Part shown: one piece after another, positions 1,975-57,846 of the stretch
Numbering within the stretch: position 1 is the stretch's first letter
How the letters are laid out: each line of letters starts with the position of its first letter
Assembly (NCBI GenBank): GCA_951406725.2
Contig: OX597816.1
Location: forward strand, 38,998,001 to 39,062,000
Origin: Octopus vulgaris
Lineage: Eukaryota
Direction: 5' to 3'
DNA length: 64,000 nt
Made by a program: the position numbers and the translations under genes
The notes under the pieces: model-generated
What the model saw: the letters and a program-made list of their open reading frames with translations, nothing else
Databases searched by the model: none
What the model was told of the DNA's origin: nothing

Positions 1975-2020
1975 TCTCTGATGATGGGATATCATTTATA
2001 TCCCTGAAACAGCTGTAAGA
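1975..2020 (+). ncRNA. Minimal type I hammerhead ribozyme motif (Penelope-type)
   Basis: UCU-CUGAUGA-U-GGGAUAU/CAUUU/AUAUCCC-U-GAAAC-AGCU-GUA-AGA. Intact core, 7-bp stem II, palindromic stem III (ACAGCUGU), 3-bp stem I. Confidence 0.75.
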
Positions 2021-2109
2021 CTACATCTCTCTTTATTAATGTCCTAGTATTTCACGCTGCCTTGGCTTTGCTGTCTCATTTTATTCAACACACACACACA
2101 CACAACAGA

Positions 2110-2537
2110 GCATCAGTGGTTGTTCTTTGCCCTCTCTTTGGTGACCGCTTCATTTCCAGGTTTGCTGACATTCCTTGCCCCCCCCCCCCTCAGTCCCCTG
2201 ATTTATCTCTGTGTGATTATTTCTTGTGGGGGAAACCTCAAGGCACATGTGTATGCACATGAGCCCTGTACATTGGACGATTTGAAGGAAGTTACTCACG
2301 TGGAAGTCGCCCAAATTGACAGAGCAATGCTGGAGAGAGTGGAGGTAAACTTCCAAGAACTCCTTCAGAAATGCATCAATGAAAACTGGCACTACATAAT
2401 GGATGTTGTTTTCCACAATTGATATTGACAAATTCTAATTCAATATGAACGCATTGATGTCAATAAAATTTGTCCGCAACTAAAATTAAGGATTTTGTGA
2501 ATTTTTCAGAAACGTCCATCCTCTCTGTCCCACCCTG
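2110..2537 (+). mobile_element. Tc1/mariner-superfamily transposon 3' remnant
   Basis: Frameshifted C-terminal transposase motif SPDLSLCDYFLWG-LKAHVY...TLDDLK...RVEVNF..CI; ends in a caccctg TIR end followed by TA. Confidence 0.8.
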
Positions 2538-3017
2538 TATGTATGTATGTATGTATGTATGTATGTATGTATGTATGTATGTATGTATGTATGTATGTAT
2601 GTATGTATGTATGTATGTATGTATGTATGTATGTATGTATGTATGTATGTATGTATGTATGTATGTATGTATGTATGTATGTATGTATGTATGTATGTAT
2701 GTATGTATGTATGTATGTATGTATGTATGTATGTATGTATGTATGTATGTATGTATGTATGTATGTATGTATGTATGTATGTATGTATGTATGTATGTAT
2801 GTATGTATGTATGTATGTATGTATGTATGTATGTATGTATGTATGTATGTATGTATGTATGTATGTATGTATGTATGTATGTATGTATGTATGTATGTAT
2901 GTATGTATGTATGTATGTATGTATGTATGTATGTATGCATGCATGCATGCATGCATGCATGCATGCATGCATGCATGCACGTACATACGTACGTACGTAC
3001 GTACGTACGTACGTACG
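2538..3017. repeat. Compound tetranucleotide microsatellite (TATG)~100-(CATG)10-CACG-TACA-(TACG)8
   Basis: Read directly from the sequence. Confidence 0.97.
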
Positions 3018-4527
3018 TATACACATATATGATAGGCTGGCTTCTTTCAGTTTCCATCTAACATATCCACTCACAACGGGTTGATCAGCATGAAGCTATT
3101 GTTGAAGACACTTGCCCAAGACACCATGTAGTTGGCAAGCAAGCTTCTTAGCACAGAGTCAAGCCTGTGCCTATGTATATGTGAATATTTGGGATTTTGT
3201 GCTTGTGTGATTAATGTATGTTTACATATTTTGTATGTATGTATGTGTGTGATTTTTGATAAAAAGTTTTAATTTGTATAGTGTATGTAAATGACATTTA
3301 ATGGTGGCATGTTTCTTGAAAGCCATTACTTCAGCACAGGTTAATTTCTGTTATTCATATACGTCTAACTTCCCAGCCATAATAGTTCATAACTGCAAAT
3401 GAGTGGAGCTCTGTAATGTTTATTTACTCATGACACAACACATGACAATAAAGCCAATGAAAGAGGCTGTACTAGCTCACATAGTAGCCTGTATATGGTC
3501 ACTTAACCTGCTAGAAATATTAGCAAAATCCCCCCTCAGACCAAATGTCACCATCAGCAGCAGCAGCAGCATTTTAGCATCCACTTTTCCATGTTTGCAT
3601 GGGTCGAGTTGAAATTTGCTGAGGCAGATTTTCTGTGACCAGATGTTATTCTTCTTGATAATTGCTTCCAAGTAAAATAATATTTTCCCATTGTTTTTTA
3701 AATATGATTAGCACAATGGTTGTGCATGTTTTTATGAAAGGTTGCAAACAAACAACATCACATGTATGATGATGACATTTGTACCTCAACACTATACCCC
3801 ACTTGACAAGACCCCCCCCCCCTCAATTGAATGGGGTATAGTGTTGAGGTATATATGAGAGAGAGAGAGAGAGAGAGATGTGAGATCAAGGTACAAGTTG
3901 AATATGAGAGAGAGAATGTGGAACAGTAAAGGTGAGTGAAGATATATGGACAGAAAGACAGTGGGCTTCTTTCAGTTTCTGTCTAACACATCCACTCACA
4001 AAGCTTTAGTCGGCCCTGTGCTATAGCAGAAGACACTTGTTCAAGGTACTGCACACTGGAATATAATCTGACATTACATGGTTGTGAAACAAACTTCTTA
4101 ACTACTCTGCCTTTAACAGGTGGGATATGAAAATCCACAGATAATGTCGTCTTTTGAAAATATGTCTTGGCTAGAATTGTTGGTCTACTGAACCCTTTAG
4201 CATTTAAACTGGCCATATCTGGCCCAAATATTTTACATGTTTTATATTCAAACTGACCATATCTAGACTCTGACATCTAACCTGCATTGACATTCTAAAA
4301 ATAACCAATCATATAATTGGAACCTCAAAACTATTAGAGAATGCATGATTAATTCAAAACAATTTGAGTATAAAAGCAATACATTTGACAAAATAATCTG
4401 AATGTTAATAGATTAATCAAAACTGACTTGGCACAAAACAGCATCAAAGAACCTAGTATCAGTGGTCCAATGCCTTATGAAGAGACACAGGATGTTTTCA
4501 GTTGTATGCAAACTATAGTGATGCTAG

Positions 4528-54926: not shown

Positions 54927-55704
54927 GGATCTTTTCCTTTTGAACGGCACTTTTCAACACAATTTCTAGTTAACTAAACACTTTTAAACTTCGTATATTG
55001 GTAGAATGTGTAAAAATAAAACATTTTTTTCTCTTGTCTTTCTTGAGAAAATTGTAATTTGTAAGTTTAACGTAGTTTAATTTTTCGAATTTTAACCAAT
55101 CCTATGCCCTCTATTTAGCTAAAATCATTTGCTGCGTCTAAAACTGAGACAACATCCTGTCACTAACCCTAATCCTCACCCTAACCCTAAATTTTAGCCT
55201 TTCGTTTTTTTTTTCTTAATTGTTAAATTAATTTAAGGATAACAATTAAGAAAAAGAACGAAAGGCTAAAACGAGAGCAATGGAAAATAATTTTAATTTA
55301 ACAATTAAGGAAAAAAAACGAAAGGCTAAAACGAAAGCAAAAACTCAAAACAAAAAAAAAAACGAATAATTTTAGACACACGCGTAACAATTAAATTAAT
55401 TTAACAATTAAGAAAAAAAACGAAAGGCTAAAATTTAGGGTTAGGGTGAGGGTTAGAGTTAGGGTGAGTGACAGGATGTTGTCTCAGTTTTAGACGCAGC
55501 AAATGATTTTTGCTAAATAGAGGGCATAGGATTGGTTAAAATTCAAAAAATTAAACTACGTTAAACTTACAAATTACAATTTTCTCAAGAAAGCCAAGAG
55601 AAAAAAATGTTTTATTTTTACACATTCTACCAGTATACGAAGTTTAAAAGCGTTTAGTTAACTAGAAATTGTGTTGAAAAGTGCCGTTCAAAAGGAAAAG
55701 ATCC
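54927..55704. mobile_element. Foldback (near-palindromic) MITE with >280-bp arms and internal TTAGGG-like repeats
   Basis: ggatcttttccttttgaacggcac... / ...gtgccgttcaaaaggaaaagatcc; TSD gaaagtt(g/a) at 54919-54926 and 55705-55712. Confidence 0.9.
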
Positions 55705-56442
55705 GAAAGTTACCCCCCCAAGGCACAAGTCTGGGCAAGGTTATTTATGGAAGACCAGCAGTTGCCCATACATACCTGCCTCCCCCTCCACACCAATGTT
55801 ATCATGATGTCACAACTCATTTCTACAGATGATTTAACTGAAGCAATGTGAAATAAAGTGTCTTGCTCAAGAACACTGGGCTGTGCCTGTAATGCTTTAT
55901 TAAACATTATTTGACTCCCCTTAACCCAGCCATCTTGCTGGAGAAAGCGTAGCATTGTGGGCCTAAAAGAAACTAGCTTTACCAAGCCCAGTCCTCTTTA
56001 ACCCTTTAGTAATCAGATTACTCTGTCAAACTAATGTTTATTTATTCACATCATTTTCAATTAATCATGCATTGTATTTTAGCTTCAAGATTTTGCTGAT
56101 GTAATTGTATATTTTTAGAATGACATTGTAGGGTTGGCATGAAAGGCTGAATTTGATTGGTTTAAACATAAAACAAATAGACAAATAGATTTTTGGTGCT
56201 GGACATGGCCTGTTTAAATGCTCACAGGTTAAACGGTACACAAAAGTGTGAATGAGGTGAGGGTTTGGACATAGTATTGCAGCCTAACCAAGAAGTGCCA
56301 AATTTTCAGCTACTATTTCTAGCATGTCCAACAATCATATAAAGGTGCTTGTGGGCAGTGGGAGGAACTTCATGGCTAAATTGATTTTTATTACTTTGGA
56401 GTCAGATCCATCATTTTTGTCTTTTTTTCCATCTGTTTCCAG

Positions 56443-56519
56443 GATCCTAGAGCAAGTTATGATGTGAATGGAAAAGATCCTGATCCTACACCACGATATG
56501 ATGCTACAGATGAGAACAG
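56443..56519 (+). CDS. FURIN: Furin-like convertase catalytic-domain exon (phase 0/2)
   Basis: ttccag acceptor, gtatgt donor; 77 nt = DPRASYDVNGKDPDPTPRYDATDEN(R). Confidence 0.96.
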
Positions 56520-57846
56520 GTATGTTTTGTTCTGTTGAAGTGTTCTCACCACTTTCAAAAGGCTACACACTTCCAATGTTTCACTTTTAGAGTTTCTTCA
56601 GAAATATTGTTGTTTATCTGTTGCTTCTAGCATGTCAGGTTTTCTGGTGGTGGTCTGGTATTTTTTAAGTTTGCTATTTCAGTAGAATTCTACACATGCG
56701 GTGAAACATCTGACAAAAGTGAAAGCGAGTAGGTGATGGGTGGGCAAGGTGGGGGAAAGGGGCATCGAGTGTTTCTTTAAGAAAAATTAAGCTATAAAAA
56801 TTGTATATATTTCCCAGATTCGTAATCTCTGTATTTTTCTACATAGATAACAAAAAAAAAAAAAAATTCAAAAACGTTACAAATTAAGAAATTGCAGTGA
56901 GGATGGGGAGGAAATTAAAATTTTGAAAATGTGATTTCTGGACAAAATTGTATTAACCCCCTTTTATATGTTGAAACAATACATAGTTTGTGATCTTTCT
57001 TAAGAACGGAAAGCACTTTCATGCAAACCCATGCAAATTGTACTCCCCCCCCTCTTCACTTTTAAATAAACAATAACTTCAATTATGCCATTAACTTTAT
57101 ATCAGTGGTGCCGATTCTGCCCATAAGGAAGGAGCAAATAATACAATGTGCCTGTAGGTCATAACACTTGGGCAACACCAAGATTCATTGTTAGTATTTA
57201 TAAATATATATATATATATATATATATATATATATATATATATATATATTACTGTGATGGTGCAATGGTAGCACACTTGGTCATGAAAACAAAGTGGTGT
57301 GGGTTTGAATCCCACACATATGACAAAACCTACTTTTTTCTGTCAAAGGCTTATATGCCCCATTATCAGACTATTTTTTTTACTCATTGCACAGTGATTA
57401 CTTATAAGCTTTAAGCTTTAAAAAATACTATTACTATTTACAGAATATATTGTGTGTGTATATATATATATATATATATATAAGTTCAGGATTCAAGTGA
57501 ATCAGGTACCTAAATAGCAAAGCACAGAGTTCAAGTTAAAGAAATAGCAATCATGTATAAAACAAAATTAAAGGAACGTTTACATACATACAGAAGTACA
57601 GACAGATTAATGTTCTAATTTCATAAATGATTACATGCGCCTGACTGAATATACCATGAGTTTCAAGGTTGTACCTACAAACACACTGCACCAATTGTAC
57701 TGCACTTAAAGGACTCCTGAACCATGCTAATTGCACATTCTGAATAAGGTGAATAATAAATAAATAACAACAGATGGAAATTGGTTCATTCATCATTAAA
57801 AAAACTCGTTTGAAACAGTTGTCGTGAATGATATATATACATATAT

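What the first reader, a model, noticed from the sequence alone, without database searches (positions are those of the whole stretch)
1975..57831. Dispersed set of Penelope-type hammerhead ribozymes with palindromic stem III in and upstream of a furin gene
Seen: eight motifs fit stemI-CUGANGA-stemII-GAAAC-(palindrome)-GUH-stemI to varying degrees. Intact cores lie at 1975(+), 10158(-) and 16354(-); one has a single core change at 11282(+); degenerate ones lie at 33037(+), 36882(-), 50686(-) and 57786(+). Stem III is a different palindrome in different families (ACAGCUGU, ACUGCAGU, ACAUAUGU, ACCGGU). Most sit in non-coding islands between (TA)n tracts, and one is next to a Penelope RT fragment. 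Established: Penelope-like elements carry minimal type I hammerheads whose palindromic helix III allows dimeric self-cleavage. Inference: several hammerhead-bearing PLE or retrozyme-like families exist in this genome. Sense-strand copies could cut a host pre-mRNA if it spans them, and the two clearly intragenic sense copies (33037, 57786) are both core-degenerate, as selection against cleavage would predict.
Basis: partly seen in the sequence, partly recalled or inferred. Interest (0 to 1): 0.8.

Follow-up and report, generated by a model that had tools for sequence, protein, structure and literature searches.

The report
Rearranged hammerhead ribozyme in octopus retroelements
Most of the flagged motifs are ordinary hammerhead self-cutting RNA motifs left by Penelope-like jumping genes in introns of an octopus furin gene, but one "degenerate" copy belongs to an abundant family whose conserved hammerhead core is wired in a scrambled order with two extra helices, a fold predicted (untested) to cut itself and likely the missing ribozyme of many Naiad retroelements.

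Summary
The motifs are real. All eight lie in high-copy repeats, and three pass a strict descriptor, against 0.003 expected. Seven are known kinds: minimal type I hammerheads of Hydra-clade Penelope-like elements, an ORF-less 427-nt retrozyme, and a U3-A8 variant. The host-selection idea fails. The first furin exon lies about 41.5 kb upstream, so every motif is intronic, the intact 1978 copy is sense, and 57786 is an inversion junction. The eighth (33037) was misread. Its family (673 exact pattern hits, 1461 with a looser pattern, 0 in controls) keeps every core base, but in a non-circular order, with helices IV and V inserted between A9 and G10.1. Stems I, III and V and the interaction helix show compensatory changes. 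The same fold occurs in two more octopus families, one just 3' of Naiad RT. Read by eye, it also occurs in published Naiad consensuses from four phyla, while nematode Naiads carry intact type-CSG hammerheads. Naiads were reported to lack canonical hammerheads, and non-circular hammerheads were reported only from metagenomes, metatranscriptomes and one bacterium. Cleavage is untested. This scan noted permuted hammerheads in Penelope-like elements before, on other DNA.

The parts
32563..33385 (+). Family D unit: ORF-less ~800-820-nt, head-to-tail permuted, (TA)n-flanked PLE-type repeat; sense in a furin intron
   Evidence: 3173 first-look candidates, best hits 93-96% identical
32999..33127 (+). 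Non-circularly permuted hammerhead with inserted helices: IVa 32999-33003, hairpin V 33004-33045, IIa (G10.1) 33046-33050, interaction helix 5' strand 33054-33060, IIIb 33067-33071, H17 33072 (predicted cut after it), Ib 33073-33079, IIb 33082-33086, GAA 33087-33089, IIIa 33090-33094, interaction helix 3' strand 33101-33107, Ia 33109-33115, CUGAAGA 33116-33122, IVb 33123-33127. This copy has one mismatch each in I, IV and V.
   Evidence: family covariation
42158..42339 (+).
1726..2104 (+). Family A pLTR; intact type I hammerhead 1975-2020 (C3 1978, ACAGCUGU, GUA), sense and intronic
   Evidence: Hydra-type RT beside copies in L108, L109
9965..10369 (-). Family B retrozyme copy (9965-10274 minus strand, inverted piece 10275-10369); type I hammerhead 10228-10157 (C3 10222, ACUGCAGU)
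11246..11418 (+). Older family C copy, C3 11287, G12A
16288..16640 (-). Young family C copy (3' pLTR of a Hydra-clade PLE), C3 16431, stem I closing pair lost
36741..37123 (-). Family E copy; U3-A8 type I hammerhead 36923-36882 (U3 at 36919, ACCGGU), intact relative to its family
50551..50799 (-). Old family F copy, C3 50726, stem III decayed
57681..57831 (.). Family G remnant: 57681-57792 minus strand plus inverted 57788-57831 holding only the 3' half of the hammerhead
24274..24378 (+). Furin-like (kpc-1-like) coding exon 2, pro-domain; exon 1 is ~41.5 kb upstream of the window
34853..34951 (+). Furin-like exon (RTKR maturation site)
41792..41926 (+). Furin-like exon (catalytic Asp, DDG)
56443..56520 (+). 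Furin-like exon
62610..62697 (+). Furin-like exon (HGTRC, catalytic His); ends approximate

Best explanation
The eight sites are passenger insertions of Penelope-like elements and their ORF-less derivatives in (TA)n tracts of furin introns: seven carry known minimal type I hammerhead motifs, predicted to cut only as dimers, and family D (33037) carries a hammerhead core in a non-circular order that likely folds and self-cleaves as a monomer after 33072. Shown by sequence comparison: the order IVa-V-IIa-X-IIIb-UH-Ib-IIb-GAAA-IIIa-X-Ia-CUGANGA-IVb, and the pairing of all six helices. X joins the 5' flank of stem I to the 3' flank of stem II, as the 'interaction' helix of type-SGC/CSG ribozymes does. 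Helices IV and V replace the covalent A9-G10.1 link with a four-way junction that has 0-1 unpaired bases. Inferred: stem II still stacks on the A9/G12 side of the core while IV stacks on V, so the RNA cleaves without a palindromic partner. Inferred: the cut processes multimeric or read-through transcripts as other PLE ribozymes are thought to do; D and K are non-autonomous derivatives of Naiad terminal repeats, copied in trans by a TA-targeting PLE protein; and the 'missing' hammerhead of many Naiads is a non-circularly permuted one.
For: Core: CUGANGA and GAAA are invariant, N7 varies (A 60, U 36, G 3) and H17 is U/C/A, never G, in 99 distinct copies (many copies were fetched by patterns that fix part of this). 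Pairing in 59 D/D2 copies: I 397/413 (4 of 7 pairs with double changes), III 290/295 (3 of 5), X 269/295 (3 of 5), V 225/235 (2 of 4), IV 278/294 (0 of 5), II 284/295 (0 of 5; 278 Watson-Crick). Stem I/III covariation exceeds 500 of 500 shuffles and all slid controls; X does likewise. II and IV covary between families instead: GAAGG/CCTTC, GACACC/GGTGTC, GGCTGGT/ACCAGCC and AGGGG/CCCCT, TGG/CCA, AGAAAGC/GCTTTCT, always with G10.1-C11.1. The full descriptor hits 86 of 124 D loci, 10 of 30 Naiad loci and 11 of 30 K loci, but 0 in 274 kb of metagenome loci and 0 in 4.2 Mb of shuffles. Family K was found by the descriptor, not by similarity. The motif lies 3' of Naiad-type RT on the same strand in 6 of 30 RT loci within a 1.5-kb flank. 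By eye in Craig 2021 File S5: the same fold in Naiad_Ovul, Obim, three Acropora, Clytia-3, Morbakka-2, Pomphorhynchus and Eulimnadia; intact CSG with interaction helix in seven nematode Naiads. Type-SGC and CSG ribozymes cleave in vitro (PMC10085705).
Against: No cleavage, RNA-end or structural data. The break between A9 and G10.1 has no tested precedent that I found; PMC10085705 states that no insertions over 1-2 nt are known there. Helices II and IV show no compensatory change inside D/D2. Copies are related by subfamily, so cell counts overstate independent events (about seven double changes in I and III by my reading). Helix IV is only 3 bp in the old Naiad copies. The window copy itself fails the full descriptor. 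Nested-only folding predicts competing hairpins. In Anolis Poseidon the hammerhead needs the element's protein and is dispensable for insertion in vitro (PMC11167929). No Naiad ORF was found in any D or K locus, so their Naiad origin rests on the shared ribozyme (D2 and the Naiad share stem I CTGCCC/GGGCAG). Naiad RT copies here are old and broken, while an intact 753-aa Neptune-type ORF family is present. Cross-phylum readings are by eye on consensus sequences.
Confidence: 0.72

Rival explanations
1. The family D fold is real but not catalytic: a hammerhead-derived folded tail kept as a binding or priming signal for the PLE protein, with helix IV holding the post-A9 strand away from an active core.
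For: The A9-G10.1 link is absent. A PLE hammerhead is dispensable for insertion in vitro. Eight of nine Xenopus retrozyme dimers did not cleave (bioRxiv 10.64898/2026.07.22.740005).
Against: All core bases, H17 not G and G10.1-C11.1 are kept across three octopus families and four phyla while the stems diverge completely. Sister Naiads in nematodes carry a complete CSG ribozyme.
Confidence: 0.15
2. Family D is a plain type-SGC hammerhead: stem II forms between CCUUC and the GGGG after CUGANGA, and the upstream helices are an off-state or are irrelevant.
For: That stem pairs in 230 of 236 cells, and the SGC structure scored 96.3% paired. The 4-nt linker between Ib and IIb resembles published SGC ribozymes.
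Against: Only 115 of those 236 cells are Watson-Crick, against 278 of 295 for the upstream stem. In Naiad copies the downstream stem pairs 66/105 against 98/105 for the upstream one. By eye it fails in Acropora, Eulimnadia and Pomphorhynchus, where II-upstream and IV are perfect.
Confidence: 0.08
3. One reading: 33037 and 57786 are type I hammerheads whose cores were degraded by selection against cutting the furin pre-mRNA.
For: Strict hits in this gene are 1 sense to 4 antisense. Xenopus retrozymes are under-represented in introns (strand not examined there).
Against: That type I reading of 33037 shows no covariation (435 of 500 shuffles as good; stem III 77.6% paired, where one subfamily is misaligned by a column), and the missing 5' CUGANGA is family-wide. 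57786 is an inversion junction. The intact 1978 copy is sense and intronic. Four genes give 4 to 6.
Confidence: 0.04

Closest known systems
Type-SGC (HRIMA-1 and variants) and type-CSG non-circularly permuted hammerhead ribozymes (Eckert et al. 2023, PMC10085705; parts 1-6 of 8 read, supplement searched)
   Same: Non-circular order of the site, GAAA and CUGANGA blocks; pseudoknotted stems I-III; short Ib-IIb linker; interaction helix joining the flanks of stems I and II.
   Different: Block C is interrupted: CUGANGA and the stem II strand are not contiguous, and helices IV and V sit between A9 and G10.1. It is found in more than a thousand copies in an animal genome and tied to PLEs, whereas the paper found SGC in metatranscriptomes, CSG in metagenomes and only one GCS candidate in a known organism. 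Cleavage is untested here.
Naiad clade of Penelope-like elements, 'HHR_core' and 'HHR_half_core' annotations (Craig et al. 2021, PMC8557442; passages, section 11, parts of the supplement)
   Same: Same 3' position, (TA)n targeting, tandem and inverted insertions. The octopus Naiad consensus ends contain this motif.
   Different: The paper reports that Naiads lack canonical hammerheads and leaves the cores unexplained; here they resolve into complete permuted folds. D and K encode no ORF and are young, while cephalopod Naiads were described as long inactive.
Minimal type I hammerheads of canonical PLEs, including Hydra clade (Cervera and de la Pena 2014, PMC4209133, parts 1-2 of 4; Hydra-1_Obim in Craig 2021 File S2)
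   Same: Families A, C, E, F and G: short stem I, palindromic stem III, predicted dimer, U3-A8 variant, position in pLTR 3' of RT/GIY-YIG with the DKT motif.
   Different: Only family sequences are new. Palindromes of 6-10 nt are longer than the figure descriptions I read.
Animal non-LTR retrozymes (Cervera and de la Pena 2020, PMC7229834, passages; Li, Clavereau and Pollet 2026, bioRxiv 10.64898/2026.07.22.740005, parts 1-3 of 5)
   Same: Family B (427 nt), D (~800-820 nt) and K (774-nt period): ORF-less ribozyme-bearing units in partial tandems, proposed to be PLE-derived.
   Different: Here mostly 0.5-2 units with PLE-type inversions and 3' ends at fixed internal AT-rich sites. D and K carry the permuted ribozyme, not type I.

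Membership tests
Hammerhead ribozyme (family D motif) | Core CUGANGA, GAAA, A15.1-U16.1, H17 not G | tested here: met
   (97 of 99 A-U; H17 U 39, C 31, A 29); partly fixed by the search patterns
Hammerhead ribozyme (family D motif) | Stems I, II and III adjoining the core, with covariation | tested here: met
   II covaries between families only
Hammerhead ribozyme (family D motif) | Site-specific self-cleavage after H17 | not testable with these tools
   no assay; no raw RNA reads
Type-SGC/CSG non-circular hammerheads | Non-circular block order with crossing stems | tested here: met
Type-SGC/CSG non-circular hammerheads | Interaction helix joining the flanks of stems I and II | tested here: met
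   helix X
Type-SGC/CSG non-circular hammerheads | Block C uninterrupted (CUGANGA followed within 1-2 nt by its stem II strand) | tested here: not met
   the stem II partner is upstream and the post-A9 strand forms helix IV; so not filed as SGC or CSG
Minimal type I PLE hammerhead (families A, B, C, E, F, G) | Order stem I-CUGANGA-II-GAAA-palindrome-UH-stem I in family copies | tested here: met
   C 26 of 29, A 16 of 24, E 8 of 14 loci intact; B; F and G only in some relatives
Minimal type I PLE hammerhead (families A, B, C, E, F, G) | Dimer-dependent cleavage | not testable with these tools
   cofolding predicts the palindrome duplex for A, B and C
Minimal type I PLE hammerhead (33037) | CUGANGA 5' of stem II and palindromic stem III | tested here: not met
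Hydra-clade PLE (family C) | DKT motif, C-terminal GIY-YIG without CCHH, hammerhead in 3' pLTR, (TA)n target | tested here: met
   L102 read against PMC8557442 section 11; Pfam does not recognise these ORFs; no tree built
Naiad PLE (autonomous carrier of the permuted motif) | RT with DKA and CxC motifs and no endonuclease 3' of RT | tested here: met
   (DKA in 5, CxC..GHV in 3 of 30 loci; motif 3' of RT in 6 of 30)
Naiad PLE (autonomous carrier of the permuted motif) | N-terminal GIY-YIG on the same natural copy | tested here: inconclusive
   copies are truncated; none seen in 10 longer loci
Naiad PLE (families D and K) | Linked Naiad ORF | tested here: not met
   none in D or K loci; filed only as likely derivatives
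Non-LTR retrozyme (family B) | ORF-less short unit with type I hammerhead, in head-to-tail copies | tested here: met
Non-LTR retrozyme (family B) | Expressed as circular RNA | not testable with these tools
   only assembled contigs of guessed RNA runs were available

The most novel reading that the evidence does not exclude
Naiad retroelements and their ORF-less derivatives carry active, monomeric, non-circularly permuted hammerheads, including a new architecture in which the catalytic core is opened between A9 and G10.1 and clamped by a four-way junction. It is conserved in molluscs, cnidarians, arthropods and acanthocephalans and amplified to thousands of copies in octopus, making scrambled hammerheads a common feature of animal genomes.
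Probability: 0.65. Interest if true: 0.87.

Novelty: new variant of a known kind. Interest (0 to 1): 0.76.

Why it matters
The finding as written is known biology. The family D fold is not. If it cleaves, it overturns the assumption that CUGANGA must be contiguous with stem II and adds a hammerhead architecture that standard descriptors and Rfam miss. It would also explain the puzzle that Naiads lack canonical hammerheads. Together with the nematode CSG forms, it moves non-circular permutations from rare environmental RNAs to abundant animal retroelements, and gives a natural series (CSG to opened form) for asking how such permutations evolve. It also makes the open question of what PLE ribozymes do testable in a monomeric ~130-nt construct.

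Tried and rejected
Rfam: the whole-window scan was swamped by microsatellite matches, and 146 of 296 rows were not shown. 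The D region gave nothing meaningful, and seven ribozyme loci gave 0 gathering-score hits. First descriptor was too strict at the first stem II pair. Type II reading of D: rejected, no stem I hairpin. Plain SGC reading (my first idea): downgraded after Naiad and K copies showed the upstream stem II. Reading TTTTGCAG|G as a splice acceptor that builds a type I ribozyme: rejected, because the exon 1 ends supply no CUGANGA and the segment is the covarying 3' strand of hairpin V; an intron in the unit is not excluded. Reading helix X as an extension of stem III forcing a dimer: replaced by the interaction-helix reading. Metagenome and viral scans with a G+C block pattern: 122 matches, 1 with weak site-block pairing and 0 with the full fold; the metagenome scan covered 42 of 64 parts. 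Expression: one search for family B; no RNA holder listed; contigs of four runs guessed to be RNA cover parts of the unit and cannot show ends or circles. No expression search was possible for D. Autonomous partner for B, D and K: not found. Neptune ORFs lie near several D loci, but all these elements target (TA)n, so this is not evidence. Strand bias: too few sites. Lunse et al. 2017 (PMC5785218) is not held and was not read. Forgia 2023 (PMC10162972) passages describe only length variants. The other reference for 'additional helices' cited in PMC13725137 was not identified. Naiad ends from spiders, Darwinula and Saccoglossus did not resolve cleanly by eye.

Full report
Setting. The window lies in a 2.8-Gb genome (G000). 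One exon matches a protein named Octopus vulgaris furin-like protease kpc-1 at 100% (P0001) and furin structures. P0001 maps five exons into the window; its first coding exon lies 41.4-41.9 kb upstream and its last about 75 kb downstream. The whole window is inside the gene, so no motif is 'upstream'.

Observation. All eight sites exist, and each lies in a repeat with 123 to 3173 first-look candidates. A strict palindromic type I descriptor finds three in the window (1978+, 10222-, 36919-) against a mean of 0.003 in 300 local dinucleotide shuffles. My first descriptor missed them because it demanded a perfect first stem II pair. 16431 has lost the stem I closing pair and 11287 has G12A; both belong to family C, intact in 26 of 29 loci. 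36919 is a U3-A8 variant at family level, a variant described in PMC4209133. 50726 is a decayed member of an old family, and 57786 is the 3' half of a hammerhead at an inversion junction.

The known part. Family C follows a Hydra-type ORF (DKT, C-terminal GIY-YIG) in L102, and the endonuclease end lies in the flank of 12 of 29 loci (queries taken from L102 itself; clade features from PMC8557442 section 11). A and G adjoin Hydra-type RT in 2 of 24 and 2 of 14 loci. E, F and B were not linked to an ORF, although U3-A8/ACCGGU motifs of other families sit behind Neptune-type ORFs. Family B has 93 exact hits. In 55 loci, which overlap in part, the element consists only of pieces of a 427-nt circular unit, up to about 1.8 units long and often with an inverted arm; nearly all are flanked by (TA)n and most end at unit positions 126 or 206. 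This is a retrozyme with PLE-type anatomy, a link already proposed (PMC7229834; bioRxiv 10.64898/2026.07.22.740005). An octopus Hydra hammerhead is already listed in Craig 2021 File S2. Cofolding gives the palindrome dimer for A, B and C. No PLE RT was found in the window.

Host selection. Not supported. The intact 1978 copy is sense and intronic. Strict hits were 1 sense to 4 antisense in this gene (a sixth hit with a 2-nt palindrome was dropped as likely chance) and 4 to 6 over four convertase genes, p 0.19 and 0.38.

Family D. The unit is ORF-less, about 800-820 nt, head-to-tail permuted and (TA)n-flanked. The blocks come instead in the order site, GAAA, CUGANGA. A pattern for that order has 673 hits and a looser one 1461, with 0 for the reversed controls. 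The patterns were designed from copies seen, so these counts measure abundance only. A divergent subfamily (D2) was found by a pairing descriptor in an unrelated locus. Among 99 distinct copies, stems I and III pair almost fully with compensatory changes. On 76 of the 99, the structure beats 500 of 500 shuffles and all slid controls; the tool warns that relatedness can inflate this.

Revision of stem II. The published Naiad_Ovul and Naiad_Obim ends contain the same arrangement, and this genome has 262 matches to it. In those copies the strand before GAAA pairs with an upstream strand (98 of 105 cells in 21 copies from 30 loci) better than with the strand after CUGANGA (66 of 105). The same upstream helix exists in D (284 of 295 cells, 278 Watson-Crick, against 115 Watson-Crick of 236 for the downstream version, on 59 of 69 rows, the 10 misaligned Naiad rows dropped). 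The strand after A9 pairs further upstream (helix IV), and a hairpin (V) fills the space between helix IV and G10.1 with 0-1 unpaired bases. A sixth helix, X, links the 5' flank of stem I to the 3' flank of stem II, as the interaction helix does in type-SGC and CSG ribozymes (PMC10085705). A descriptor for the whole fold hits 86 of 124 D loci and 10 of 30 Naiad loci. In 1.09 Mb of other loci it gave three hits at two places, which proved to be a third family, K (3319 candidates, 11 of 30 loci passing). It gave 0 hits in 274 kb of metagenome loci and 4.2 Mb of shuffles. The three families have different sequences in II, III, IV, V and X, yet all pair, and all keep G10.1-C11.1. The window copy has single mismatches in I, IV and V and may be weak or dead.

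Link to Naiads. RT copies similar to the one 5' of the motif carry DKA (5 of 30) or CxC..GHV (3 of 30), and have the motif 3' on the same strand in 6 of 30 within 1.5 kb. I read about 43 of 54 consensus ends in Craig 2021 File S5 by eye, most only over the last ~300 nt. The four-way form is complete in two Octopus, three Acropora, Clytia-3, Morbakka-2, Pomphorhynchus and Eulimnadia, and partial in Euprymna. Seven nematode Naiads (three Nippostrongylus, Haemonchus, Heligmosomoides, Ascaris, one Pristionchus) show an uninterrupted CSG order, nearly all with a clear interaction helix. One spider looks SGC-like with an unclear stem II. Bivalve, hemichordate and some other ends show a different motif that I recognise from recall as twister-like. 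Several ends showed nothing. The paper says Naiads lack canonical hammerheads and flags unexplained cores.

Mechanism. Shown: order and pairing. Inferred: the fold is the CSG/SGC ribozyme opened between A9 and G10.1 and clamped by IV and V. With II stacked on the core and IV on V, the active site would be preserved, and it would cut in cis after H17 without a partner. Inferred from PLE biology: the cut processes multimeric or read-through RNA. Insertions end far 3' of the site and run through it, so uncut or circular RNA is the likely template, in line with PMC11167929. The mobilising protein is unknown: Naiad RTs here are old, while an intact 753-aa Neptune-type family exists.

Against. There is no assay. 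A broken A9-G10.1 link has no precedent that I found. II and IV do not covary within D. The cross-phylum readings are manual, and D and K have no linked ORF.

Literature. Ten searches of the held library found non-circular hammerheads only in PMC10085705 and papers citing it, and 'Naiad' with 'ribozyme' only in Craig 2021, the 2026 preprint and one unrelated paper. PMC10085705 reports none in known organisms except one bacterial GCS candidate; its supplement has no 'Octopus' or 'Metazoa'. PMC13725137 mentions variants with additional helices without detail. Lunse 2017, subscription papers and bioRxiv supplements were not seen and could bear on novelty. Earlier notes of this scan mention permuted hammerheads in Naiad-like elements on other DNA. 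They were read after my analysis and are not support.

Verdict. The finding as written is real but known, and its selection argument fails. Inside it sits a new variant of the hammerhead ribozyme with good comparative support and no experimental test. Interest 0.76.

Noticed in passing
Craig 2021 File S5, nematode Naiad ends: Seven nematode Naiad consensuses carry complete type-CSG hammerheads with covarying stems, nearly all with a clear interaction helix; CSG was published from two metagenomic sequences.
   Followed up: partly
L117:8497-8610 (+); L503-L532: Family K: third octopus repeat with the four-way permuted hammerhead, 774-nt tandem period, no ORF seen.
   Followed up: partly
L245:1240-1290, L325, L328, L331, L563; window-relative -157263 and -158673: Neptune-type elements here carry U3-A8 type I hammerheads with an ACCGGU palindrome, like family E.
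   Followed up: partly
L563:1790-4048 (-) and many hits: Young Neptune-type PLE family with intact 753-aa ORFs; a candidate mobiliser in trans.
   Followed up: partly
window 33124-33133 and D2 copies: A conserved near-palindrome (GGAA-NN-TTCC) overlaps the helix IV strand just 3' of the core and drives predicted dimers; a possible switch or dimerisation site.
   Followed up: no
D unit, about 215-240 nt 3' of the ribozyme (window ~32575 and ~33350): Conserved GTAAG(T/A) donor-like site in D and D2; a PLE-type retained intron is possible.
   Followed up: partly
L101: Tandem Neptune-type copies with their own hammerhead family and a family C pLTR nested in the 3' region.
   Followed up: no
L008, L032, L046, L052, L078, L080, L103, L112, L339: At least eight further type I hammerhead families with other palindromes (ACAAUUGU, ACACGUGU, ACGAUCGU, ACGU) turned up in flanks.
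   Followed up: no
window 42574-45765 (-): Nearly complete LINE with AP endonuclease, RT and a PHD-like finger, antisense in a furin intron.
   Followed up: no
window 55144-55487: Long inverted repeat with telomere-like TTAGGG arms, probably a MITE-like element (seen alignments).
   Followed up: no
window 20246-20471, 29486-29838, 58007-58219, 60499-60714: Related 61-68-nt GC-rich tandem repeats, recurring in many loci.
   Followed up: no
window 5341-5631 (-): Mariner-type transposase HTH fragment.
   Followed up: no
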